The notes under the pieces: generated by a model | Told to the model about the DNA's origin: nothing | Seen by the model: only the letters and a program-made list of their open reading frames with translations | Database searches by the model: none | From: Eledone cirrhosa | Lineage: Eukaryota | Reading direction: 5' to 3' | Assembly: GCA_964016885.1 (NCBI GenBank) | Contig: OZ024741.1 | Location: forward strand, 151,342,001 to 151,406,000 | DNA length: 64,000 nucleotides | Made by a program: the position numbers and the translations under genes | In this document: positions 409-54,149 of the stretch, piece after piece | How the letters are laid out: the number at the start of each line of letters is the position of its first letter | How positions within the stretch are numbered: position 1 is the stretch's first letter

Positions 409-1352
409 TTGAAATGTTGTCTATGATTGCCTATACAATATAAGGTTAGATAGGTCTTTCTGCTAGCCATCGCATTCCTGTGATTTATGAGTATCCACAA
501 TAATGTTGGAGCTACGAATTGTGGCAGGTGATAAAGACTTCTATAAACTATATATATATAAGCAGAAGGGATATTCAATTTGTTGGTAATTCAACAAATA
601 TAAATGTTTATAACTGATTCAGAGCACTATCCAGGGATAACTTGAACCGTTAAGGTATATTATCCTTGGTTATGTCAAAAAACACACTTCGTATTTTATC
701 TGATGATAGCGTACCAAAATGTTGGTACCCTTGACATATATATAATAGAATAAATATGGTTTTATATATATAGTTTCCATTATTTAATATTATTGTATAT
801 ATACATATATATATATATATATAACGAAGGAAATGGATAAGGAACCAGATGGACCATAACGCACCAAAGTACTCAATACATAGGGTAGTAGAGTGGGTAA
901 TAGGAACGAGTAGGACCCCGACGGCTGAGCTCAAGCCGTTTCGACGGCTAATTCTGGACGCAATGATATTAAATAAATGGAAACTATATATATAAAACCA
1001 TATTTATTCTATTATATATATTTCAAGGGTACCAAAATGTTGGTACGCTATCATCAGATAAAATACGAAGTGTGTTTTTTGACATAACCAAGGATAATAT
1101 ACCTTAACGGTTCAAGTTATCCCTGGATAGTGCTCTGAATCAGTTATAAACATTTATATTTGTTGAATTACCAACAAATTGAATATCCCTTCTGCTTATA
1201 TATATATAGTTTATAGAAGTCTTTATCACCTGCCACAATTCGTAGCTCCAACATTATTGTGGATACTCATAAATCACAGGAATGCGATGGCTAGCAGAAA
1301 GACCTATCTAACCTTATATTGTATAGGTAATCATAGACAACATTTCAATGAT
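405..1352. mobile_element. ~390-bp inverted duplication of an HHR-bearing PLE-type element, with a second PLE 3' end (822-958) at its centre
   Basis: 405-796 is the near-perfect reverse complement of 961-1352 (ORFs 321..578- and 1179..1463+ begin identically); both arms carry tattttat-CTGATGA...GA(A/C)ATATATATA-atagaata. Confidence 0.85.
822..958 (-). mobile_element. 5'-truncated PLE pLTR 3' end (family of 37345-38525)
   Basis: Minus strand: CCAGAATTAGCCGTC-GAAACGGC TTGAGCTCA GCCGTC-GGGGT (3' half of HHR), followed by a 3' tail running into (TA)n. Confidence 0.75.
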
Positions 1353-1385: not shown

Positions 1386-2893
1386 TCATCATCATCATCA
1401 TCATCAGGTTTAGCGTCCGTGTTCCACGCTTGCATGGGTTTGGACGGGGGTTTTCCCACTTGAGGCAAGAGTGGTTGTCTTGCTCGCATAGGACTGTCTG
1501 GCGGGTTTTCTACAGTTGGATGCCCTTCCTAACACCAACCACATTTACAGTGTGGGGCTGGGAGGTTTTTACCGTGTTGCCTACACGGCCACATTACAGC
1601 GTGGACTGTCTGGCGGGTTTTCTACAGCTGGATGCCCTTCCTAACACCAACCACATTTACAGTGTGGGGCTGGGAGGTTTTTACCGTGTTGCCTACACGG
1701 CCACATTTACAGCGTGGACTGTGTGTTTTTTGTCGTGACACCTACACGATCTCATTTGTTTCGGCCTGGATGTTGTGGGACCAACATAACTTTACATTGA
1801 AAGGGGCGGTGTGGGTGGGGTGGAGGTGGTGGGACGGGGGTGTGTTTTGATAGAGATGCCTACTGACTGTAGTAGGTTTTTACTTTGTATTTAGGTAAGG
1901 CGGGTCTTCTCTATTACCGAGTACCGCCAAAGGTCTCGGTCCAGTGACATTGTCTTGGAGAGGTGTAAGCGTGTGAGGTCGGAATTTATCAGCTCGTCCC
2001 ATGTTTTTCTGGGTCTGCCTACTCCGTGGCTACCGTCTATCTTTATTGCCCTGCACTTTGTTATACAGCTGTCGTCTTTCATGCGCATCACGTGACCGTA
2101 CCAACGTAGCCTTCTCTCGAGTAAACAACATCTGATCCCTCTTATTTCTAATTTTTTCCTTAGTTCGTTTATGCTTTGCCGTTCACGTATATTACTATTG
2201 CACATCCAGCGGAGCATGCAAGCTTCGTTCCTCTCTAGTCTGCGTATATCCTCTGCACACAATGCCCAGGTCTCACTGCCATGCAGCATTGCTGTTCGTA
2301 TGCAGGCATCGTATAACCTGCCTTTCATTTTTAGGGAGAACCCTCTAGCGGCTAATAGTGGTATAAGCTCTCTGAACTTTTTCCATCCAGTTCTGACTCT
2401 AGCTACTGTACTTTCAGAGCACCCTCCCCCACTGCTGATTTTGTCACCCAGATAACGGAAGCTGTCCACTATTTCTATAGAACCCTCTGCGCAGTTGAAG
2501 GAGCTAGTATTTTGTGGGCACTTGCTGCTACTTATTGCACCAGAGCACCGGCCACATGTAAAATCTATGTTCTTAGTTAGCTCACCTGTGATCCCACTAC
2601 ATCTTTTATGCACCCATACTTTGCATTTGGGACATAAAATGGAGTTTCTACCTACGCCTTTCCTACACACTGAGCATGGCCATTTCCCCGATGGGACCGC
2701 CGCCTTATTTTCTTTCCTACAAACTAGAACTTTAGTCTTAGCCAGGTTAATTTTAAGGCCTTTTGATTCTAGGCTGTGCTTCCACGTTTGGAATTTCTTC
2801 TCTAGTTCGGTCATTGATTCAGCTATGAGCGTTAGATCATCTGCGTATAGGAGTTCCCATGGGCAGCCGGTCTTGAACTCCTCTGTTATAGCC
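1386..2893 (-). mobile_element. RTE/BovB-type LINE, 5'-truncated: RT C-terminus, 3' UTR and (GAT)n tail
   Basis: The frame upstream of ORF 1891..2814 reads ELLYADDL; INLAKTKVL, FRYLGD, LHGSETW, RLRWYGHVMR and GRPRKTW are typical RTE motifs; Cys-rich PHD-like insert; tcatca repeat at 1386-1405. Confidence 0.92.
1491..1715. repeat. ~112-bp tandem duplication in RTE 3' UTR
   Basis: ggactgtctggcgggttttctacag starts at 1491 and 1603; a third unit start at ~1716. Confidence 0.9.
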
Positions 2894-2957
2894 TGAAGGG
2901 CAATAATAAATAGTAGGGGGCTAATATATATATATATTTATATCGTTCGATTGCTAC

Positions 2958-4610: not shown

Positions 4611-4644
4611 TAAGACAGACTTTAGACTTTATATCTATATATCT

Positions 4645-5095
4645 ATATCCGAAAGAGTCGTGACCCGACGGCTGAGCTCTTGCCGTTTCCTCAGCTAGTT
4701 TCAGGCTGTTTGAATGTTCTTTGTCGACAAGTCGATAGTTTGTCGTGGCATAGTGTGTTCGGTCATTTGGCAAGATATAGAAAAGGTCGGATAGTGCCGG
4801 GATAGATGTCTCATAAACGTCGAAAAGTGCTCTACTACTGTAGTAGGAACTATATATATGAGGATCGAACCAGTATTAGACTAGTTAGACCATTATCAAA
4901 ACAGAGTACTCGATACTTGGGAAAGTAGAGTGTGACTATATTAGAAAGTGTCGGGACCCAACGGCTGAGCTCTTGCCGTTTCAAAAGCTAGTTCCACTGA
5001 ACTAGCTATCGGGCCCCGACTTTTTCTAATATAGTCACACTCTGTTACCCCAAGTATCCAGTACTATGTTAAATATTGTTTATTACTGGTTTAAT

Positions 5096-5705: not shown

Positions 5706-5755
5706 ATATTATATATATATGTATATATATATATGTGTATATATATATATATATA

Positions 5756-5946
5756 TAGGAACGAGTAGGACCCCGACGGCTGAGCTCAAGCCGTTTCGAC
5801 GGCTAATTCTGGACAGAATTAGCCGTCAAAACGGCTTGAGCTCAGCCGTAGGGGTCCTACTCGTTCCTATTACCCACTCTACTACCCTAAGTATTGAGTA
5901 CTTTGGTGCGTTATGGTCCACCTGGTTCCTTACCACATTTCCTTCG

Positions 5947-5996: not shown

Positions 5997-6420
5997 TTAT
6001 TATGAGTTTGAAGAATAGTCAGTCAAAATTTATCCAATTTTTTCTTCTTAGTCCGTAGAAATTAACTAGATAAATAATCATTTAAACGGCGTTAAGTTTA
6101 AAATGTATCTTTGAAGAAATACCAGATAAATGTTATCGATATTCCTTTATGAGGAACAGTCAGATAAAATTTACCTAATCTTTCCTCTTAGTCCGTTGAA
6201 ATGGAGCTAAACCTAAAATGTAAGTTGAAGAAAAATATAGATAAACGTTACCAAACATTCTCTCACGCCCAACTATCAATAGTTTCGTTCGTATTTTGTG
6301 GAAATGTCTAATTGTTACATTATCCATGAGGCTTAGAGCTATTCAAGAGACTCCCCACAGTTAGGACCGATATTTCCAAAGTGATCATCGTTAGTAACGA
6401 ATATATATATATATATATAT

Positions 6421-7073
6421 GAATGTATGTATAGTATATTTGGCAACATACCGTATATTTAATTATAAACATTTTGAATACCTTGCACTATCATTTTTAA
6501 TGTAGTGACTATGTCACTTACTTCTTGTTTTGGCAAAGGAAGGGAGAGAAGCTGACAGATTCTGTTTAACGCTGTTGGCGATCCTCAGAGCATCGTACGC
6601 CCCTCCCCGCCTTTGCTGAAAATTATAGAGGCTGGATTCTTATAGAATTCCAGTAATAATCAGGAACTGATTATACAGAGCGATTGCCGGTCCATCAAAA
6701 ATTAAAAATTAGGATTGGTGCTCTGAAATAGCGATGTATACATAAATGTATGTATAGTATATTTGGCAATATACCGTATGTTTAATTAAAAACATTTTGA
6801 AGACCTTGCGCTATCATTTTTAAAGTAGTGCCTATGTCACTTACTTCTTTTTTTCGGCAAAGGAAGGGAGAGAAGCTGACATATTCTGTTTCACGCTGTT
6901 GGCGATCCTCAGCTTCTCTCCCTTCCTTTGCCGAAAAAAGAAGTAAGTGACATAGTCGCTACTTTAAAAATGATAGCGCAAGGTCTTCAACATGTTTTAA
7001 ATTAAATATACGGTATATTGCCAAATATACTATACATACATTTATGTATACATCACTATTTCAGAGCACCAAT

Positions 7074-7075
<2 letters not shown>
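6421..7075 (-). mobile_element. Retrozyme-like / non-autonomous PLE: direct repeat (324-nt period) plus inverted arm, two HHRs
   Basis: 6421-6588 repeats at 6745-6912; 6912-7075 is the inverted copy; minus-strand HHRs at ~6551-6592 and ~6871-6917; TA tracts on both sides. Confidence 0.8.
6871..6917 (-). ncRNA. Type I hammerhead ribozyme
   Basis: CTGAGGA-TCGC CAACA GCGT-GAAACA GAATA TGTC-AGC; the sister copy 6551-6592 has stem I GCT/AGC and stem III ACAG/CTGT but G12->T. Confidence 0.7.
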
Positions 7076-7133
<58 letters not shown>

Positions 7134-10838: not shown

Positions 10839-11134
10839 ATTAATATTATTCAAAATATTAATAACTGGAGATATTTAGATAATAAAAATAAATATTTTAT
10901 TATATATATTTCGGAGGTACTGTCCTCATCAGATAACATATGTGAATTGATGTATGACATACCTTGACTGCCAAGACTGAAATTGAACCATCAACACAGT
11001 TGAGGTATGTCATACATCAATTCATATATTTTATCGGATGAGGACGTACTGAAAAATCATCAGAGTACCCCCGAAATATATATAATAAAACATATATTTT
11101 GATTATGTAAATGTCTCCATTTATTAATATTTTG

Positions 11135-11874: not shown

Positions 11875-12084
11875 TACGTTATTCCGGGTTGAATCGGAGG
11901 TAACCACAGTAAGTAAGGTACTCAATACATAGCAGAGTATAACAGTTTTAATATAGATGAGATTCTACAGGACTAGAACTGTTTCATTCATTAGAAATCA
12001 TCAGGAATCAAATGGGATTCCTGATGATTTCTAATGAATGAAACAGTTCTAGTCCTGTAGAATCTCATCTATATTAAAACTATA

Positions 12085-12150
<66 letters not shown>

Positions 12151-12360
12151 TATAGTTTTAATATAGATGAGATTCTACAGGACTAGAACTGTTTCATTCA
12201 TTAGAAATCATCAGGAATCCCATTTGATTCCTGATGATTTCTAATGAATGAAACAGTTCTAGTCCTGTAGAATCTCATCTATATTAAAACTGTTATACTC
12301 TGCTATGTATTGAGTACCTTACTTACTGTGGTTACCTCCGATTCAACCCGGAATAACGTA
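11875..12360. mobile_element. Double palindrome: fold-back HHR element duplicated in inverted orientation around a TA tract
   Basis: 11875-12081 is the reverse complement of 12154-12360; each half is itself a hairpin; four HHR cores in total. Confidence 0.9.
12012..12068 (+). ncRNA. Type I hammerhead ribozyme, intact core (identical minus-strand copy at 12167-12223)
   Basis: ATGGGATTC-CTGATGA-TTTC TAAT GAAT-GAAACAG TTCTAGTC CTGTA-GAATCTCAT. Confidence 0.85.
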
Positions 12361-17639: not shown

Positions 17640-18190
17640 GAAATATACCCACACAACTAAACTTGCCTATCTTACTAAAATACAACCAAATGAAAACTAT
17701 CTTACAAAAATATCCAATCATAAAAAGTAAATGACGACCAAAATTACTAAAAAAAAAGGGATACTAACGAATGCAAAACTGCAAACCGTTACTAAAGTGC
17801 CCGAAGTAAAACGGTGCCATCGACCTCACTGTAATGTATGCAACTATCTGTTAGAGGGCAATGAATTTAATTTTAAAATAAAAAAAATGACTTATCTTGC
17901 AACTCGAAGAATCAATTATTCATTGTAACGTGTAAAGGCTGCCACAAACATTATATTGGACAAACATGCACTTCTCTGCAGCGTCAAATGGCAGTTCAAC
18001 GCCAACAAATCAGTGACCTGCACACCAGAAAGATTCACCTAAGGCAACATATAGAGAAATGTGAAGGACGAATTCTGCCAAATTTCGATGACTTCCTATT
18101 CTACCAGTGTAGCGAACATTTCACCCAGGAAAAATGTATTCATAAGAAAAGATTCTTCGTAAGTAAATTCAAGGCTAAATTCAAATTTTA
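17640..18190 (+). pseudogene. PLE GIY-YIG endonuclease remnant
   Basis: CHRPHCNVC, then after a frameshift IVTCKGCHKHYIGQT and HLRQHIEKC. Confidence 0.8.
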
Positions 18191-18499
18191 TCACACACAA
18201 AATTCTTTTTTACGTCGATTGTAAGAACCGTATTCTCCTCGATATAAGCGACACAGATAAAACCAGTTGCGTCCCTTGTGTTCAACAGGACCATAAGAGC
18301 CCGACCACGTGAACTGCACAGAAACAAAAATCTTTTTGAAAAAGCTGTAAACCCAGCTGAAACTGGTAAAAGTAAACAAAAATACATCAATAAACAAAAA
18401 TTTACTTGGCACACGAGAATAACATCAATCCAATCTTAATTTATCCCTTTTTTGCCCCAGTGAAGTAATTCGGTAGTTCTTTCAAAATTTCTGAATAAA

Positions 18500-27049: not shown

Positions 27050-28700
27050 TTCTTCTGGTTTTATAATTTCACGAAGTTTTACCAATAGAGAGAGAGTCGG
27101 TTTCTAACATAGACACAAGACTCTCTCATTGGAATTTACACAACATCAACTAGGTAGATATGTATGTATGTCTACATGCATGCATGTGTAGATATGGATG
27201 TTATTGTATGTGTGGATGTGTATGTTTTGAGTTGTATGTGTGCATGTGTATATGCTTTGTATCTGTACATGTGTATATGCAGTTATTAGATGCAACATTT
27301 TTGGAATGTTTTACATAATTTTACTGTTCCATTAATGGATTGTACTTGTAATTTCCTAACTAGTTGTGTTCTTTCTGTTCCTGTGAAGCCTAGCTTCTCA
27401 AGATTTGTATTGAGGCAGTTACTAACATATCCCAGTGCCCCAATAATCACAGGCATAAATCTGAAGGTGTAATCAGGGTGGAGTATCTGCAGATTTCTCA
27501 TCAGTTCTGCATAAATATTCTCCTTTTCACTAATCTTTGATATTATATTGGCATCTGCTGGGCAGCTAATTTCCACTACTGTGCATGTTTTCTTCTCCCT
27601 ATCCCATATCATAATATCTGGTCTGTTATGCCTGCATTTTATTAGTGTTTTTACTGGAACATTCCACCATTACTCTTTCATATTATGTACATGGATGTCT
27701 TCCACATTGTTGTAGCTTTTAATGTGTTTATCATTGGGGCTATCTTTTTTACGAACTGCATTGTACAGTGTTTTGGCCACTACATCATGCCTCATAGGTA
27801 GATAGTACCGCGATGACATCTTTGGACAGCTGCTGATGACATGGGTGATATCCTCGATGTTAGTTCTGCAGAGTCTGCACTTGTTATCACATCTAGGTGT
27901 TTTGCCTGCATCCCTATCTCTTTTGTGAATCAGGTATTTCGTGCTAATCTCCTGTTCTTGGATTGCAAAAGCGTATCCTTCAAAGTGGGAGCCAATATAG
28001 CGGTTGTTGGTCCAAGATAGACTACTTTCCTTATCTATATTACTCTCACTCTGGAGCTTCCTGGCAACATATCCATGCATGATTTTTTGCTGATAGGCAT
28101 ACAGTTTTTCATCCATGGATTCACTGCGATACTGCTGAGCGACATCCCAGGGTGTGAGTTTTTGATTATCACACAGGGAATATCTCTCAAGGAGTTCCTT
28201 CCCAACTCTCATAATCTTATCTGTTTCATGCAGATAGACTTTCTCGAGAAGCGGGCTCCTACCCTTCGAAGTTCGTAGATCTTGTCGGAGAGATATGATG
28301 CGACATTCAAATGTTGTCTGGACTGATGTTAGGCCTCTGCCTCCCTGCCTACGTTTCAAGTAAAGGCGGTCTATGTCACTGTTGATGTGGAAGTTTCCGG
28401 TGTTGTTCAGTATTTTTCGAGTTCCAACATCAACTGCTCGGATTTCGTCTATCGCCAATTGAGTATTCCAAACGTTGGTGTTAGGACAGGCACAGCAAAC
28501 ATATTGTGAGCCAATGTTTTGTTTTGCGGAGAGAGTCCCGATGACCAGATCTTACTTAATCGGGTGTAGTATTCCCTGGTTACGCGTTCTTTATTACAGA
28601 TACCATTATAGGATATGTTCTCATCTATCCCCAGGTATCTGTAGCAGTCCTCATCAGATATCGGTGAAACAGTTAGACCATTGATGACAATGTTGCTAGA
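27050..28700 (-). mobile_element. R4/Dong-type LINE (RT thumb, CCHC knuckle, RLE) with probable 3' UTR at 27050-27150
   Basis: YRYLGI, RLYLKRRQGGRGL, CRLC..HVISSC, RHD, RPDI, VVEISCP, PVIIGALG. Confidence 0.92.
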
Positions 28701-28936
28701 TTGGGTTGTTGTTTTTGTGGTTGACACATCCACATGTTTTGAGTTGTATGTGTGCATGTGCATATGATTTTATGTATGCATGTATGTATGTATGTATGTT
28801 TGTATGCATGTACGTATCTATGTGTGTGCTAGATGTGTGTATGTGTGTAGAGTGTGTACCTATTTTTTTAAATACATAATAAGAACATAATTCAACTCTT
28901 CCACTCTCACTCTCAAACTCACTCTCTAGATACAAA

Positions 28937-34409: not shown

Positions 34410-36760
34410 GTGAAAACTGGGACGGGAACAAAAACAGAGAGGCAGTACAAATAAAGGTTTATTAGTTTCACGCTCTTGAGAGTGGGGAGGGGGGCGTTTC
34501 GGGCATAGGCCCTTCTTCAGGAGAAAAGTGGGTGGGAAAAGAGTTCCGAGGGTGTGTGGGTGAGTGGTGGAGAGACATTTAGAAAGGGGGGGGGGGTAGA
34601 AAAGGGAGGAAAAACGGTGGAAGTGGTGCAAATAAAAATAAAAATAAACATAAAGATAAACAAGTGGTGGAAGGATGTGGGGCGTGTAGGGGTGGTGGTT
34701 GGTGGAGTAGGGAGAAGGAGGTGGGGGTCCGAGCGGGGAAGGTTGAAGGTGGTGTTTGTGTATGTGTGTAGGTGTACGTGTGTGTGTGTGTATGTGAGAG
34801 TTGGGAGAAGAACGAGGTTCCATGTTCAGGAAAAGGTGTGTGGGGGTGGGGTGTAGGTTGATGTGTGCGTGCGTGTGGATGGGGAGGGGTCGGGGGGGAT
34901 TCCGGAGACTGAGTGTCTTGGTGTTTATACGTGGTGTGGATGTAGGTGGCGTGGTTCGAAAAAAAATTGTGAGTGTATGTCCGAGGGTAAGTAACTAAGG
35001 TAGTTCCGTGGAGTGTGCGATGAGCTGGTGGATATTTTTCATGTTATGGAGTGGATAGCTGGAACGATGACCGGTGGTGTGTAATCCGTTGGTTGTGGTG
35101 GTCGGAAGTGGGGAGATGTGGGGTGCGCGCGCAACAGGAAGTGGTCAGAGGGTGAAGGCATAGCAGTAGAGGAGAATGACAGGTGGAGAAAGTCAGTGTG
35201 TGGTGAGGATTGTGTCTGTGTGTGCGGAGTTGCGGTGGTCAGGGGAGAAGATGGCTAGGTGTGAAAGGTGGAGTAGGCAGGGACACATGTGAGGGGATGG
35301 GGTGTGTATTAGTAGAAGTGTTAGTGGGATGTGTGTGTGTGTGAAAGGGTGTGGGTGGAGGGGGAGGGGAGGTGATGTTAGTATTGTTAGTTGAGGGAAG
35401 GTGGCCGGGGTGGGGTGGTTGTTAGTATTGTTAGTTGTGGGCTGGGCCAAGGGGGTGGGCAGTGAAAGGGAGGAGTGTGTTAGTGGGGGATATGTTCGTA
35501 TGTGGGTGTGTCGGGGGGGGGGGGGGGGGGGTAAACAGGGCTGTCGAAGGCTAAAGGAATAAGGGTGAGGGGTTCAGGCCGCGGGGTGTGTGGGTCTGTA
35601 GGGTGAAGATGGTGCGTTGTTCGACCGTGAGGCGGCTGGCTGTTGTTCCGTGGCATTGGAGTAGGCCACAGACTGTGAGATGGTGGGCGGAATGTCCAGG
35701 GGAGCCAAAGTGGCGGGCGATGGGGAACTACCGCCGAGACGAATATCCCGGAGGTATTCAGTGAAACGGTCCGCGAAGTGACGTCCAGTCTGTCCGAGAT
35801 AGATTGCGCTGCACTCAGTGCAGCGAATTCCATAGACTAGGTTGGAGGAGGTGCAGTGGAAGGCGTGCCGGACAGAGAGAGAGAGTGGCCGTTGGGACCC
35901 TGGAAGGTGGTGATGTTGGTGATGTGGGGGCAGGTGTGGCAACGAGGCTTGGAGCTGGGAAGGGAACCGGGGTGGGGGGGAAAGAGCGTTGGTTGGGGTA
36001 TTGGGGGTAGGGAGCTACGGACGAGGAGGGTGCGGAGATTGTATGCGCGTTTGAAGGAGGGGAGGGGTTGGGATGGGAAGATGTTGGAGGTGGAGGGGTC
36101 AGACTGGAGGCGTCGCAAGAGGCGGAAGATGGTGCGGTGGAGGGTTGGTAGGTGATGACGAATGGGAGACGGTGGGTGGGTGTGAGGTGGCATGGGGTGA
36201 GGCTGGTGGAGCGGTGAACAGCACGGGCGCGAGTGAGGGCGGTTTTGACGGGGGGTAACCTCTCCGGATAAAATGGCTGACTAGGAAAGGGGCCTGGGAC
36301 TCAAAGTCAGCATCTCTGCTGCAGAGGCGGCTGGAGGAGTTGGGAGCAGGGAATAGAGTGTTTTGTGTGTGAAGGGTGAGAGGAGGTGAAGTCGAGGTAG
36401 GTGTGGGAGTCGGTGGCTTTGAAGGAGGCGGAGGTGACGAGGGAGCGGTGGGAGGGGTCGATGGCGACGGAGATGTCTAAGAACTGGACGTAGGTGGTGG
36501 AGATAGAGGTCATGAAGTGGAGGGACGGGTGGAAGGAGCAGAAGAGGGAGAGAAAGGAGTCGAGCACTTCTCCGGTGAGGGTCGTGGGGCCGGTGTACTA
36601 GGCAAAGATTTGAGCCCCAACATGGTTAACGAAAAGGTTGGCATAGTTTGGGCCCATTCTTATGCCCATGGCTACCCCCGTGACCTGTCGGTAAAACTCA
36701 CCCGAGAAGGAGAAGCATTTGAGGTTGAGGACTTGCTCGGCGAGGCGAAGAAGGGTGGGG

Positions 36761-37344: not shown

Positions 37345-38525
37345 ATAACAAAAGGAATTGTGGTAAAGAACCAAATGGACCATATCGCACCAGAGTACTC
37401 AATACTTAGGGTAGTAGAGTGGGAAATAGGAAAAAGTATGACCCCGACGGCAGAGCTCAAGCCGTTTCGACGGCTATTTCTGGACTAAATTAGAATTTTT
37501 ACCCTGGTGAATAAATAGCCGAACTTTTCAAGGGGGTACTTCCTTATATGGGAAGATTGTAGTTGTCAAGAGGATTGGTTAAAATTTATTGTAAACACAA
37601 ATAAGTCTATCATGGCGTTTGGTGGGAAGTAGAGGTGGCTGAACTTGCCTGTAGAACAATAGGGGAGTGAGTGGAGCGGTCAAGCGTTGAAAGTGATATG
37701 TATACAGCAGATTCTAAGGATAGTGTATGAAGTGGAGGAGGGAGGTTATAGAATAGGTAAATCGAATGAGAGTAGGAGACAATAAAAGATAATAGAAAGA
37801 AATAAAAAAAATATATATAAAATTAGATAGTGAGAAATGAATAAAGAAATCACAATGCTATCTTACAATTACAGGTTAATAAGTTGAGAATAGAAAAAAC
37901 TGATAGAAATTACAAAACCGATACAAACTTAAAAGGGTTTTTAACACATCTGCTATAAGTAGTTAGTAAAACGTATTCGGCCGATTCTTTCTTAAAATAA
38001 CAGGGGTGGGGGAACTGATGAAAGGGGAAAGCAGACGAGAAAGAAAATAGGGGGTGGAAGGAAATGATAGGATGAGACAGGGGGAAGAAGGAGACAAAGA
38101 GGAAAAGAAAAGAGATACATTTACCTATGTAAGTTGGGGTTTCCCCAAACTTATTCGGCAAGTGTGTATGTGGGGGGGGGGGTATCAGCCCTTGTCTACC
38201 CACCCGGGTCGTTATAGGGTTTGAGGGCGAGGTAAGTCCTACGCAATCTGTGTTTGCATGCGGTTACCAGTTCATCTTTCTTGTTTAGGAGTTGGTCCTT
38301 CGAAAACAGCATTTGTAATGTTTCCTCCGAGCATAAGTTACACGGACGGCGTCCTCCCGTGTAAGAGTTAGCTCTGTACAGTAAGCTCCAAGTGAGATTG
38401 TAGGTTATATTGTTATCTTGGAGGTCCCAGATGTGGCCCAAAAGTGTAGTGGCATGTCGCCGGACCGGGTTTCGGAAAGTGTGTCGGTGTTGGTAGAGCC
38501 GGGTCTTGAAGTCTTGAAGTCTTGA
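37345..38525 (-). mobile_element. PLE (Naiad-like) GIY-YIG C-terminus, 3' UTR and HHR pLTR
   Basis: FKTRLYQHRHTF..HIWDL..CNLCSEE..LLNKKDELVTACKH; the 3' end runs into a TA/TG tract. Confidence 0.85.
37441..37537 (-). ncRNA. Type I HHR, U3-A8 variant, long stem II
   Basis: CCCC-TTGAAAA-GTTCGGCTATTT...AAATAGCCGTC-GAAACGGC TTGAGCTCT GCCGTC-GGGG. Confidence 0.75.
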
Positions 38526-38712
38526 AGTCACATATAGATACCTGATAAAAATCATATATATCTCTCTCATATGTATCCTTCACAAATCATGAATAAATTT
38601 TACCAAATATCGGTGCAGTTATATAATCGATCTGGATCTTCAGTGAGGGAAACCGATCTATCAAAACTTACACCAGTTAACATTAGAACCTAAGACGATG
38701 AGAGAAGCACAT

Positions 38713-41832: not shown

Positions 41833-42544
41833 GATGACCCCTTAGCCTTTGTCGAGGCAGAATTCTACGAGAAGGAAAACTCTGATATAGCACCTGCAAC
41901 CCTGATGGTATCCAATGATGTTGACTTGTTCTTCTTTTTGGTAACTATCATCTTGGTTAAGAGAGTGGGACTGGCTTTGTGCAGTGCCATTGCTCACTAT
42001 AAAAGCTTCACGGCACAGGCATTGCTTTATATCTGGAGATCTCTCTACACTTGTCGTCACATGGTACCACAGGGCCAGCACTATGTGTCAGTAATTGTCA
42101 CAAGTGTAGTGTTTGTACCAGAGTTTTCAAGTCGCTGGCTGGACTAAAAAGTCACACTCGTTCAGCGCATCGGTAGGGGTTCTCCTACATGGATATAAAG
42201 TAGTGGCCATACTCGAAAACGAGTTGGCAGCCACCATATGTATATATATATGTATATGTATGTATGTATATGTATATATATGTAAATATGTATGTATGTG
42301 TATGTATGTGTATGTATATGTGTGTGTATATGTATATATATATATATATATATGTGTGTGTATGTATATGTATGTGTATGTGTGTATGTATATATATATG
42401 TATATGTAAATGTGTATATATATGTATATGTATATGTATGTATATGTATATATATGTGTATGTATATATATGTATACATATGTATGTGTATATATATATG
42501 TATGTATATGTATATATATGTATATATGTATATATGTGTATTTG

Positions 42545-42575
<31 letters not shown>

Positions 42576-42868
42576 TAAAATAACAGATTAACTATATATA
42601 TGTATATGTGTATATATGTATATATATATGTATATGTACATGTATATATGTATATATGTATATGTATGTATATGTATATATATATGTATATGTATATATA
42701 TATATATTTATATGTATATGTGTATATATATGTATATGTATATGTATGTGTATATGTATATATATGTATGTATATGTATATGTATATATATATGTGTATA
42801 TGTATATATATATATGTGTGTGTATGTATATATATGTGTATATGTATGTGTATATATGTGTGTGTATG

Positions 42869-42941
<73 letters not shown>

Positions 42942-42990
42942 TTATATATATATATGTATATGTATATATATATGTATATATGTATATATA

Positions 42991-43031
<41 letters not shown>

Positions 43032-43198
43032 GTATGTGTATAAATATATATGTATGTATATGTATATATATATGTATATGTGTATGTGTATGTATATGTA
43101 TGTGTGTGTATGTGTATGTATATGTATGTGTATATGTGTATATGTATGTATATATATGTATGTATATGTATATATATATATATATATATGTATGTGTA

Positions 43199-43249
<51 letters not shown>

Positions 43250-43404
43250 GTGTGTATATGTGTGTGTGTATATATGTATATATATGTGTGTATATATGTA
43301 TATGTATATATGTATGTGTATATGTATATATGTATATGTATGTGTATGTATATATATGCGTATATGTATATATATGTCTGTATATATATGTATATATATA
43401 TACG

Positions 43405-43437
<33 letters not shown>

Positions 43438-44004
43438 GTGTATGTGTGTGTGTATGTATATATGTATGTGTATATATATGTGTTTATATATGTATATGTA
43501 TATATATATGTATATGTATATTAATATATGTATATATGTATATGTATATGTGTATATGTGTATATGTATGTATGTATATGTGTGTGTCTGTATATGTATA
43601 TGTATATATATGTATTTATATATGTGTATGTGTGTATGTATATGTATATATATATATGTATGTGTATATGTATATATGTGTATATATGTATATATATATA
43701 TGTATATATATATATATGTGTATGTATATGTGTGTATATGTATATGTGTATGTGTATGTATATGTATATATATATATATGTATATGTATATATATATGTG
43801 TCTATATATACGTATGTATATATATGTATGTATATATATATATGTGTATATATGTGTGTATATGTATGTATATATGTATGTATATATGTGTATATGTGTA
43901 TGTATATGTGTATATATATATGTATATATGTGTGTATGTATATATGTATATATATGTATATATGTATGTATATGTGTATGTATATGTATATGTATATATA
44001 TATG

Positions 44005-44061
<57 letters not shown>

Positions 44062-44216
44062 GTGTGTATATGTGTGTGTGTATATATGTATATATATGTG
44101 TGTATATATGTATATGTATATATGTATGTGTATATGTATATATGTATATGTATGTGTATGTATATATATGCGTATATGTATATATATGTCTGTATATATA
44201 TGTATATATATATACG

Positions 44217-44249
<33 letters not shown>

Positions 44250-44892
44250 GTGTATGTGTGTGTGTATGTATATATGTATGTGTATATATATGTGTTTATA
44301 TATGTATATGTATATATATATGTATATGTATATTAATATATGTATATATGTATATGTATATGTGTATATGTGTATATGTATGTATGTATATGTGTGTGTC
44401 TGTATATGTATATGTATATATATGTATTTATATATGTGTATGTGTGTATGTATATGTATATATATATATGTATGTGTATATGTATATATGTGTATATATG
44501 TATATATATATATGTATATATATATATATGTGTATGTATATGTGTGTATATGTATATGTGTATGTGTATGTATATGTATATATATATATATGTATATGTA
44601 TATATATATGTGTCTATATATACGTATGTATATATATGTATGTATATATATATATGTGTATATATGTGTGTATATGTATGTATATATGTATGTATATATG
44701 TGTATATGTGTATGTATATGTGTATATATATATGTATATATGTGTGTATGTATATATGTATATATATGTATATATGTATGTATATGTGTATGTATATGTA
44801 TATGTATATATATATGTATATGTATATGTATATATATGTATATATGTATGTGTATATGTATATGTATATATATATGTGTGGATATATATATG

Positions 44893-44924
<32 letters not shown>

Positions 44925-46293
44925 TCTTCCGGGAGAGATGACCCCTTAGCCTTTGTCAAGGCAGAATTCTAGGAGAAGGAAAACTCTGATATAACACCTG
45001 CAACCCTGATGGTATCCAATGATGTTGACTTGTTCTTGTTTTTGGTAAATATCATCTTGGTTAAGAGAGTGGGACTGGCTTTGTGCAGTGCCTTTGCTCA
45101 CTATAAAAACTTCACAGCACAGGCATTGCTTTATATCTGGAGATCTCTCTGCACTTGTCATCACAGGGTACAATGGGCCAGCACTATGTGTCAGTAATTG
45201 TCACAAGTGTGGTGTTTGTACCAGAGTTTTCAAGTCGCTGGCTGGACTAAAAAGTCACACCCGTTTAGCTCATCAGTAGGGGTTCTCCTACATGGATATA
45301 AAGTAGTGGCCGTACTCGAAAACGAGTTGGCAGCCACCATATGTATATATATATATATATGTATATATATGTATGTATATGTATATATATGTAAATATGT
45401 ATGTACGTGTATGTATGTGTATGTATATGTGTGTGTATATGTATATATATATATATATATGTGTGTGTATGTATATGTATGTGTATGTGTGTATGTATAT
45501 ATATATATATATATGTATATGTAAATGTGTATATATATGTATATGTATATGTATGTATATGTATATGTATTTGTATGTATATATATGTATACATATGTAT
45601 GTCTAAATATATGTATATATATGTATATATATGTATATATGTATATATGTGTATATGTATATATATATATAGATATATATATATATGTATATGTGTATAT
45701 ATGTATATATATATGTATATGTATATGTATATATGTATATATGTATATATGTATATGTATGTATATGTATATATATATGTATATGTATATATATATTTAT
45801 ATGTATATGTATATGTGTATATATATGTATATGTATATGTATGTGTATATGTATATATATCTATGTATATGTATATGTATGTATATATATGTGTATATGT
45901 ATATATATATATGTGTGTATGTATATATATGTGTATATGTATGTGTATATATGTGTGTGTATGTATATGTATATATATATGTATATATATATGTATATAT
46001 CTATATATATGTATATGTATATATATGTATATATGTATATATATATATATGTGTATATATATATATATATGTATGTATGTGTATGTGTATATATATATAT
46101 ATATGTATGTATATGTATATATATATGTATATATATATACGTATATATATATGTATGTATATGTATATGTATATGTGTATGTGTATGTATATGTATGGGT
46201 GTGTATGTGTATGTATATATATGTGTATATGTATGTATATATATGTATGTATGTATGTACATGTATATATATATATATATATATGTATGTGTA

Positions 46294-46326
<33 letters not shown>

Positions 46327-46477
46327 GTATATGTATGTGTGTATATGTGTGTGTAATTATGTATATATATGTGTGTATATATGTATATGTATATATATAT
46401 ATGTGTATATGTATATATGTATATGTATGTGTATGTATCTATATGTATATATGTATATATATGTGTGTATATATATG

Positions 46478-46510
<33 letters not shown>

Positions 46511-47039
46511 GTATATAAGTGTGTATGTGTGTGTATGTATATATGCATGTTTATATATATGTGTTTATATATGTATATGTATATATATATGTATATATAT
46601 ATGTATATATGTATATGTATATGTGTATATGTGTATATGTATGTATATGTGTGTGTATGTATATGTATATGTATATATATATATATGTATTTTTATATGT
46701 GTATGTGTGTATGTATATGTATATATATATGTATGTGTATATGTATATATGTGTATATATGTGTATATATATATGTATATATATATATGTGTGTATGTAT
46801 ATGTGTGTATATGTATATCTGTATGTGTATGTATATGTATATATATATATGTATATGTATATATATATGTGTGTATATATACGTATCTATATATATGTAT
46901 GTATATATATATATATGTGTGTATATATGTGTGTATATGTATGTATATATGTATGTATATATGTGTATATGTGTATGTATATGTGTATATATATATGTGT
47001 ATATGTGTGTATATATATATGTATATATATGTATATTTG

Positions 47040-47076
<37 letters not shown>

Positions 47077-47623
47077 GTATATATATATGTATATGTATGT
47101 ATATGTATGTATATGTATATGTATATATATATATGTATATGTATATGTATATATATGTATATATGTATGTGTATATGTATATGTATGTATATATATATAT
47201 ATATATATCTTCCGGGAGAGATGACCCCTTAGCCTTTGTCAAGGCAGAATTCTAGGAGAAGGAAAACTCTGATATAACACCTGCATCCCTGATGGTATCC
47301 AATGATGTTGACTTGTTATTGTTTTTAGTAAATATCATCTTGGTTAAGAGAGTGGGACTGGCTTTGTGCATTGTCTTTGCTAACTATAAAAGCTTCACGG
47401 CACAGGCATTGCTTTATATCTGGAGATCTCTCTGCACTTGTCATCACAGGGTACAATGGGCCCAGCACTATGTGTCAGTAATTATCACAAGTGTAGTGTT
47501 TGTACCAGAGTTTTCAAGTCGCTGGCTGGACTAAAAAGTCACACTCGTTCAGCGCATCAGTAGGGGTTCTCCTACATGGATATAAAGTAGTGGCCGTTCT
47601 CGAAAACTAGTTGGCAGCCACCA
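41833..47623 (+). repeat. Three direct copies of a ~400-bp decayed RTE zinc-finger 3' end (41833-42237, 44926-45340, 47209-47623) separated by complex (TA/TG/TATG) tracts
   Basis: Near-identical gatgaccccttagcctttgtc...ttggcagccacca; [19 protein letters not shown]. Confidence 0.9.
43225..44850. repeat. 812-bp tandem duplication within low-complexity tract
   Basis: Rare markers (atgcgt, gtctgt, tattaa) recur at an 812-bp offset (43358/44170; ORF ends 43524/44336). Confidence 0.8.
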
Positions 47624-49587: not shown

Positions 49588-49626
49588 TGAACCTGAAGAT
49601 TGCGAAAGCATGAAAGTACTTGTTCA
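49588..49626 (+). ncRNA. Minimal type I HHR, intact core
   Basis: TGAAC-CTGAAGA-TTGC GAAA GCAT-GAAAG TA CTT-GTTCA. Confidence 0.8.
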
Positions 49627-52699: not shown

Positions 52700-53040
52700 A
52701 TATCAATGATATTAATAAATGGAAACTATATTTATAAAACCATATTTATTTTATTATATATATTTCAAGGGTTACAAAAACTTGTGTACGCCCTCATCAG
52801 ATAAAATACAAAATTTGTTTTATAAATAGTGACATAACCCAGAAACCAGTCCTTATCGGTTCAAGTTCCGTTTGGATTGAACCGATAAGATCTGGTTTCT
52901 GGGGTATGTCACTATTTTTAAAACGAATTTTGTATTTTATCTGATGAGGGCCTACCAAAGTTTTTGGCACCCTTGAAATATATATAATAAAATAAATATA
53001 GTTTTATAAATATAGTTTCCATTTATTAATATCATTGATA
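52700..53040. mobile_element. Fold-back HHR element (family of 405-1352)
   Basis: Arms meet at ~52865; plus-strand HHR 52933-52994 TATTTTAT-CTGATGA-GGG...CCCTT-GAAAT ATAT ATA-ATAAAATA, mirrored at ~52747-52808. Confidence 0.85.
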
Positions 53041-54083: not shown

Positions 54084-54149
54084 TGTTTTATTATATATAT
54101 TTCGAAGGTACTGTGCTGCTTTTTCAGTACGTCCTCGTCAGATAAAATA
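54084..54149 (-). ncRNA. Type I HHR (family of 10839-11138)
   Basis: TATTTTAT-CTGACGA-GGACGTACTG...CAGTACCTTC-GAAAT ATAT ATA-ATAAAACA. Confidence 0.75.

What the first reader, a model, noticed from the sequence alone, without database searches (positions are those of the whole stretch)
6421..7075. Two-ribozyme unit that would release a 324-nt retrozyme-like RNA
Seen: a direct repeat with 324-nt period and an HHR in each copy on the minus strand (GUC sites at 6554-6556 and 6878-6880), no ORF, and an inverted arm that starts at the second ribozyme's CUGA. Established: metazoan non-LTR retrozymes are short tandem HHR repeats that give linear and circular monomer RNAs. Inference: the consensus yields a monomer of 6554-6877 that could circularise. 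In this copy one HHR has G12->U and the other lost its native stem I at the fold-back, so it is probably inactive.
Basis: partly seen in the sequence, partly recalled or inferred. Interest (0 to 1): 0.75.

Follow-up and report, generated by a model that had tools for sequence, protein, structure and literature searches.

The report
Decayed Penelope-mobilised hammerhead retrozyme copy
This is one aged copy of a small, protein-free jumping repeat found hundreds of times in this animal genome; it carries a predicted self-cutting RNA motif and was likely pasted in by Penelope-type retrotransposon enzymes, a kind of element already described, and this copy is predicted to be unable to release the proposed RNA circle.

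Summary
In detail: a 324-nt direct repeat, two type I hammerhead motifs on the minus strand, and an inverted arm joined at the second CUGA, between TA runs. It is one insertion of a dispersed non-coding family (unit about 318 nt; 549 exact core matches). Hammerhead stems covary, and direct dimers recur (53 matches; 10 fetched dimers have two complete motifs). The anatomy is textbook Penelope-like: partial tandem, inverted arm, TA target, and two fixed 3' ends about 30-35 nt apart (the 'tail'). Of 65 classable inverted insertions, 58 have one end of each kind; 13 of 48 arm pairs cannot be simple fold-backs, so twin priming is likely. Both ribozymes here are damaged (G12U; lost stem I plus a stem III mismatch), so this locus probably makes no monomer. 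Most cDNA arms read through the cleavage site, which fits a circular or an uncut template; circular RNA is untested. No autonomous partner was found among two PLE families examined. Animal retrozymes as non-autonomous PLEs are in print, and this scan noted younger families of the same kind in this and other genomes. New member of a known kind; interest 0.3.

The parts
6401..6420 (.). (TA)n target run, left
   Evidence: sequence; 64% of 173 A/B-type ends in the family have TA-rich flanks vs 25% of 81 other ends
6421..6553 (-). Terminal partial unit (unit positions q1-133, q1 = first base after GUC), ending at 3' end site A, a likely RT start site
   Evidence: family ends pile up at q125-150 (64 of 200 3' ends score at q144 because BLAST runs into the TA tract; true end about q134-136)
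6554..6588 (-). Hammerhead 1 core: CUGAGGA, 3-bp stem II with U-U at its base, UAAA (G12U at 6568), near-palindromic stem III, GUC; predicted dead
6527..6618 (-). Stem I of hammerhead 1: 3-bp core stem, internal loop and long covarying extension
   Evidence: 27-pair structure, 89% of cells paired, 8 pairs with two-sided changes in 12 chosen copies
6554..6877 (-). Full unit (cleavage site to cleavage site), 324 nt here, about 318 in the family; non-coding, branched fold
   Evidence: circular MFE z -6.8 here and -2.4 to -4.5 in four other copies
6708..6744 (-). Internal copy of the 'tail' between site A (about q135) and site B (about q170)
   Evidence: 3' end histogram; loose TA ends at 6708 and 6737 in run X1 contigs
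6878..6912 (-). Hammerhead 2 core: conserved core letters intact, stem III mismatch at 6882, native stem I lost; C3-U4 locked in the palindrome; predicted dead
   Evidence: active fold costs +10.8 kcal/mol against +2.9 and +6.6 in two intact copies
6909..7075 (+). Inverted arm (q1-166) joined by a 4-nt overlap at CUGA, carrying the tail (about 7046-7075) and ending at 3' end site B
7076..7119 (.). (TA)n target run, right
   Evidence: sequence

Best explanation
The locus is one decayed insertion of a dispersed, non-coding, hammerhead-bearing repeat of about 318 nt that was likely mobilised in trans by a Penelope-like RT/GIY-YIG enzyme, i.e. likely a non-LTR retrozyme. Shown: family, ends, covarying hammerhead fold, damage in this copy. 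Inferred mechanism: (1) a dimeric locus is transcribed; tandem motifs would cut as a double hammerhead through the palindromic stem III, and the monomer may be ligated to a circle, or the uncut multimer is used directly; (2) the PLE protein nicks both strands of a TA run and starts reverse transcription inside the RNA at two sites, A (about 135 nt after the cleavage site) on one DNA end and B (about 170 nt) on the other; (3) both cDNAs run upstream, usually through the ribozyme junction, for up to about two units; (4) their 3' ends are joined by microhomology (4 nt here), giving a head-to-head palindrome with the 30-35 nt tail on one arm. Here the A arm ran about 490 nt, past two cleavage sites, and the B arm stopped at the cleavage site. 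The join destroyed stem I of one ribozyme; point changes then hit both. This copy is predicted to release no monomer.
For: Family: 2420 first-look candidates; 549 exact core matches, control 0. Ends: 173 of 200 3' ends in 127 elements fall in two windows; 49 of 55 classable inverted insertions are A+B (p 9e-10; 29 of 33 in the subset chosen by a tail word), plus 9 of 10 in 36 further loci. 13 of 48 A+B pairs cannot arise by fold-back from either arm. This matches published PLE anatomy (Craig 2021 PMC8557442, passages; PMC3846280, passages) and the two internal RT starts with both-strand priming of Frangieh 2024 (PMC11167929, parts 1-2 of 4). Ribozyme: stem II middle pair 64 G-C, 65 A-U, 14 mixed; 8 pairs with two-sided changes; stem III varies in length yet its self-duplex is -6.9 to -13.6 kcal/mol in six dimers. 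One template per insertion: stem II variant matches in 38 of 38 classable within-locus pairs; rare variants shared 12-15% within loci vs 3% between. Intact-looking PLE ORFs exist in the genome (796-aa RT plus GIY-YIG frame).
Against: No autonomous partner sharing the unit was found in two PLE families examined. Rfam hammerhead models gave no match. The stem II covariation may be one inherited event, and the 12 rows were hand-picked. 35 of 48 arm pairs, this locus included, are also compatible with fold-back. Within-locus sharing could come from later gene conversion in palindromes or from subfamilies active at different times; the partner arm is the strictly nearest neighbour in only 29 of 293 pairs. 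Only 6 of 171 arms end within 3 nt of a cleavage site, so the DNA record does not show cleavage in vivo. End calls rest on BLAST boundaries with hand-set windows.
Confidence: 0.85

Rival explanations
1. One reading: intact dimers release a monomer that circularises, and the circle is the template copied round by RT.
For: 112 of 170 arms cross one ribozyme junction and 15 cross two; all subfamilies have homogeneous dimers, which a monomer bottleneck would give; 5' ends are enriched just past site B (16 of 77 at q163-195, p 0.004, window chosen after looking), about one turn; the circular fold is stable; circles are shown for coral, mussel and axolotl retrozymes (PMC7229834, parts 2-4 of 6).
Against: Arms stop at about two units (longest 636 nt); the two close-family trimers have middle units 0-0.7% apart but terminal units 6-8% apart, i.e. 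later local duplication or assembly artefact. In vitro a PLE used unprocessed RNA and did not need cleavage; 8 of 9 Xenopus dimers did not cleave in vitro. One locus carries the same G12 change in both arms (L015), as if a dead ribozyme had been mobilised.
Confidence: 0.4
2. The unit is simply the pseudo-LTR or an internally deleted remnant of an autonomous PLE, spread as 5'-truncated partial tandems from uncut linear transcripts, with no small RNA of its own.
For: The anatomy equals that of autonomous PLEs; retrozyme units are homologous to pLTRs in Xenopus (bioRxiv 10.64898/2026.07.22.740005, parts 1-3 of 5); the two-unit ceiling and the 5' pile-up could mark a transcription start.
Against: In 127 elements, arms longer than one unit re-enter the unit rather than an ORF; 81 flanks show no shared continuation at the junction; the two autonomous families checked share nothing but TA-like words with the unit. 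Descent from a lost PLE remains possible and is compatible with the best explanation.
Confidence: 0.3
3. The inverted arm arose by self-priming fold-back of one cDNA at the CUGA/UCAG overlap, with the tail end set by endonuclease resolution, not by a second priming event.
For: The arm is closer to the internal unit (5 mismatches in 131) than to the terminal one (10 in 131); the junction has a 4-nt overlap; self-priming was proposed for PLE palindromes; this locus is geometrically compatible.
Against: 13 of 48 family pairs are incompatible with fold-back from either arm; fold-back from the A arm does not by itself predict a stop at site B; a PLE protein extends both strands in vitro.
Confidence: 0.2
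4. A MITE-like DNA element or chance palindrome with a fortuitous hammerhead-like word.
For: Inverted ends in TA runs; no Rfam hammerhead match.
Against: The inverted ends are unequal (A vs B), the centre varies from copy to copy, 54 of 127 elements have only one outer 3' end and a variable 5' end; stems covary.
Confidence: 0.02

Closest known systems
Metazoan non-LTR retrozymes (coral, mussel, axolotl; Cervera and de la Pena 2020, PMC7229834, parts 2-4 of 6 read; Li, Clavereau and Pollet 2026, bioRxiv 10.64898/2026.07.22.740005, parts 1-3 of 5 read)
   Same: Non-coding unit of 170-400 nt, low GC (36-38%), one type I hammerhead per unit, short palindromic stem III, U-U at the base of stem II as in axolotl HHR_Amex2, tandem copies, PLEs in the same genome.
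   Different: Mostly 1-2 units per arm and dispersed, with no long arrays seen; head-to-head arms with fixed unequal ends are not described in the parts of those papers that I read; no TSD discernible in TA runs; RNA products untested; this copy is damaged.
EN+ Penelope-like elements (Craig 2021, PMC8557442, passages; Adineta vaga Penelope, PMC3846280, passages; PAc of Frangieh 2024, PMC11167929, parts 1-2 of 4; Cervera and de la Pena 2014, PMC4209133, parts 1-2 of 4)
   Same: Two direct repeats plus an adjacent inverted 5'-truncated copy, a 30-40 bp tail on one end only, AT/TA targets, hammerhead upstream of two internal RT start sites (about 135 and 170 nt after the cleavage site).
   Different: No RT/EN ORF; no sequence-sharing autonomous partner identified.

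Membership tests
Non-LTR retrozyme | Short non-coding unit (about 150-450 nt), GC under 50% | tested here: met
   317-324 nt, GC 0.36-0.38; longest frame 58 codons
Non-LTR retrozyme | Type I hammerhead in each unit | tested here: met
   Core letters and stems I-III with covariation; not recognised by Rfam
Non-LTR retrozyme | [quoted passage not shown] | tested here: met
   53 direct-dimer matches; 10 fetched dimers with both motifs complete
Active retrozyme locus (this copy) | Both motifs complete at this locus | tested here: not met
   G12U in one; stem I lost and stem III mismatch in the other
Non-LTR retrozyme | Self-cleavage in vitro | not testable with these tools
   needs transcription assay
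Non-LTR retrozyme | Linear and circular monomer RNA in vivo | not testable with these tools
   needs RNA data; see Tried and rejected
Non-LTR retrozyme | Long tandem arrays (typical, not required) | tested here: inconclusive
   One trimer among 53 dimer matches; trimers look like later duplications; exact patterns miss diverged arrays
PLE-mobilised insertion | Partial tandem plus adjacent inverted 5'-truncated copy | tested here: met
   73 of 127 elements are head-to-head
PLE-mobilised insertion | 30-40 bp tail on one end only | tested here: met
   58 of 65 classable inverted insertions are A+B
PLE-mobilised insertion | AT-rich or (TA)n target | tested here: met
Autonomous PLE | RT plus GIY-YIG ORF | tested here: not met
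   no ORF continuation in flanks
Non-autonomous derivative of a given PLE | pLTR homology to an autonomous family | tested here: inconclusive
   None in two families checked; each RT search had over 15,000 candidates, of which 150 and 138 were scored

The most novel reading that the evidence does not exclude
The family's insertions record how a PLE enzyme works: a dimer loads on one circular ribozyme RNA at two sites about 35 nt apart, each subunit primed by one end of the cut TA target, so every two-armed insertion gets exactly one A end and one B end, both arms copy the same molecule, and arms tend to stall after about one turn at the loading site. This would be a counted, genome-scale footprint of rolling-circle twin priming for animal retrozymes; the one-tail rule is in print as a description, but I found no twin-priming account of it in my searches.
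Probability: 0.3. Interest if true: 0.55.

Novelty: new member of a known kind. Interest (0 to 1): 0.3.

Why it matters
The locus itself is an ordinary dead insertion. The family adds a further animal retrozyme whose ends tie it to Penelope-type mobilisation, a link proposed in 2020 and argued from phylogeny in a 2026 preprint. The A+B end rule, the same-template signal and the read-through of cleavage sites give simple predictions for the open questions of how PLEs make their tandem/inverted structures and whether retrozyme circles are the templates. Younger families with long arrays, already noted by this scan in the same genome, are better material for that test than this aged one (median 6-7% divergence between arms of one insertion).

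Tried and rejected
Expression: no RNA holder listed; run X5 is of unrecorded kind and contigs cannot show circles, so say nothing on expression; only shows family-like pieces in contigs of organism A and, thinly, organisms B and D. Rfam: only hairpin-driven miRNA matches below gathering scores. Partner search: a high-copy PLE with a 796-aa RT plus GIY-YIG frame and CxxC linker (Neptune-type by my recall of clade marks) and a second family with frames of about 880 aa share no pLTR with the unit. Pile-up of 5' ends at the cleavage site: not seen (6 of 171; most apparent q1 starts continue into the ribozyme); one search's local alignments overshoot into palindromes, so one search's HSP chains were used for lengths. 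Trimers as rolling-circle evidence: rejected for L223 and L237. One search used a mis-registered structure and was replaced. One search stopped with an error at its last test (A-U variant copy), which was not repeated. Rows dropped: 12 duplicate loci; L039 (secondary minisatellite) and L110 (duplicate-like of L109) left out but counted; 18 of 73 and 6 of 16 inverted loci had an unclassable end and are outside the A+B counts. Only the first 100 of 145 places were listed, so that sample covers contigs C1-C9. A sequence look-up among earlier notes found nothing. Supplements of the preprint were not available; they may list related families. Whether the locus lies in an intron was not tested. The organism was not determined; earlier notes call it a cephalopod.

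Full report
Convention: q is the position in the unit window:6554-6877 read on the minus strand; q1 is the first base after the GUC cleavage triplet.

1. Observation. The direct repeat has spacing 323-324 and the inverted arm is 93% complementary. Read on the minus strand the element is: TA run, inverted arm, CUGAGGA motif 2 (6912-6878), one full unit ending in motif 1 (6588-6554), 133 further bases, TA run. Motif 1 has U at G12 (6568). Forcing the hammerhead fold costs 4.3 and 10.8 kcal/mol for motifs 1 and 2, and 2.9 and 6.6 for two intact copies elsewhere. The longest open frame is 58 codons.

2. Family. The genome (3.0 Gb) holds a dispersed family: 2420 first-look candidates, 40 scored; 19 exact full cores; 145 exact 26-mers from the tail side; 549 degenerate core matches; reversed controls 0. 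The usual unit is about 317-318 nt. Segments from different loci differ by 7.8%, arms within a locus by 6-7%, so most sampled copies are old.

3. Ribozyme. Core letters stay at 96-100% in 139-152 aligned segments while N7 varies (part of this sample was selected on the core). The middle pair of stem II is G-C in 64 and A-U in 65 segments, mixed in 14; this may be a single inherited change. In 12 chosen copies a 27-pair structure with a long stem I extension is 89% paired with 8 pairs changed on both sides, against 45-55% for slid controls. Stem III differs in length between subfamilies but remains self-complementary (duplex -6.9 to -13.6 kcal/mol in six dimers), the mark of dimer-acting animal hammerheads (PMC4209133). 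A U-U at the base of stem II is also reported for axolotl HHR_Amex2 (PMC7229834). Rfam models did not match. Circularised units fold better than shuffles (z -2.4 to -6.8, five units, 60 shuffles each).

4. Ends. In 127 distinct elements, 173 of 200 outer 3' ends fall at site A (q125-150; true end about q135) or site B (q164-181), mostly against TA runs, while 5' ends scatter. Seventy-three elements are head-to-head; of 55 with both ends classable, 49 have one A and one B end (p 9e-10 against independent choice), 29 of 33 in the subset picked by a tail word, and 9 of 10 in 36 further loci. The window copy is A on the left and B on the right. This is the published PLE layout: partial tandem, adjacent inverted copy, 30-40 bp tail at one end, TA targets (PMC8557442 passages; PMC3846280 passages). 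Frangieh et al. showed that the tail is the stretch between two internal RT start sites, that both target strands are cut and extended, and that ribozyme cleavage is not needed in vitro.

5. How the arms were made. Thirteen of 48 A+B pairs cannot be fold-backs, because neither arm is contained in the other; 35, including this locus, could be. Arms of one insertion share the stem II variant in 38 of 38 classable pairs (12 unclassable) and share rare variants at 12-15% against 3% between loci, pointing to one template, though conversion or subfamily timing could also do this, and the partner is the strictly nearest neighbour in only 29 of 293 pairs. Of 170 terminal arms, 43 cross no ribozyme junction, 112 cross one and 15 cross two; the longest is 636 nt. 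Only 6 of 171 end within 3 nt of a cleavage site, the window's B arm being one. 5' ends are modestly enriched just past site B (16 of 77, p 0.004, post hoc). So templates were uncut multimers or ligated circles; DNA alone cannot tell which.

6. Tandems. Direct dimers at 310-340 nt recur (53 matches), and 10 fetched dimers have two complete motifs, so loci able to release a monomer are predicted to exist. Two trimers look like later local duplications. A diverged relative (about 80% identity) beside L005 has three to four units at 317 nt that differ by about 1-2%; this could be a roll-around product and was not followed up.

7. Partner. The genome has abundant PLEs with long frames. One has a 796-aa RT plus GIY-YIG frame and its own inverted ends in TA about 36 nt apart by eye; another has frames of about 880 aa. 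Neither shares the unit. No sampled copy runs into an ORF. The partner is unidentified.

8. Comparison. It works like, and at family level meets the sequence criteria of, a non-LTR retrozyme (PMC7229834), and fits the preprint that calls such elements non-autonomous PLE sequences. It is not an autonomous PLE, and this copy fails the two-complete-motifs test for an active locus. Cleavage and circles are untested. A search for cephalopod plus Penelope plus hammerhead ribozyme listed only Craig 2021; one for hammerhead, octopus, retrozyme listed no such family among the 15 of 96 shown. Earlier notes of this scan describe the same two-armed pattern in a younger 422-424 nt family of this genome and in other genomes; I had reached the A+B result before reading them and did not test their loci.

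9. Verdict. Observation confirmed; interpretation partly supported; new member of a known kind. Confidence in PLE-mobilised retrozyme-type element 0.85; in a circular monomer from intact loci about 0.4; that this copy yields the RNA, low. Interest 0.3.

Noticed in passing
window 1021-1057, 10909-10932, 11982-12043, 12192-12253, 34497-34520, 49593-49615, 52763-52978, 54122-54141: Further CUGANGA..GAAA motifs of several unrelated repeat families, some as inverted pairs (13 matches vs 1.46 expected); the genome looks saturated with PLE-type mini-elements.
   Followed up: no
window 5755-5870 (related pieces at 4630-4700 and 4923-4993): A 116-nt near-perfect palindrome between TA runs, from another repeat family; possibly one of the rearranged-hammerhead families of earlier notes, not tested.
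   Followed up: no
L174-L177, upstream of the long frames: The pLTR of the high-copy 796-aa PLE holds a hammerhead-like word with U3-A8 in place of C3-G8, read by eye; its 3' flank region is mostly compound microsatellite, and a second upstream frame of 300-450 aa overlaps the RT frame (frameshift or intron).
   Followed up: partly
L178 (G000:C4:247698000-247706000), minus strand 5916 and 6248: A different hammerhead-bearing repeat with two motifs 332 nt apart: another candidate retrozyme family.
   Followed up: no
L220 3319-4382 / L005 93-839: Diverged relative of the family with three to four units at 317-nt spacing, about 1-2% apart.
   Followed up: partly
L039 1712-2996: A 28-nt piece of the unit (q98-133, a palindromic part) has expanded into a minisatellite of about 45 copies.
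   Followed up: no
L015 (G000:C28:108433674-108436973): Both arms carry the same G12 change and the same loop variant, suggesting that a ribozyme-dead RNA was mobilised or that the arms were homogenised.
   Followed up: partly
window 1891-2937 (-), 17877-18224 (+), 27286-28769 (-), 35574-36280 (-), 38196-38579 (-): Fragments of other retroelements: RT-like frames and GIY-YIG-like pieces (Pfam support weak or absent for those scanned).
   Followed up: partly
window 42100-47300: About 5 kb of compound (TA/TG) microsatellite with internal repeats and strong GC skew.
   Followed up: no
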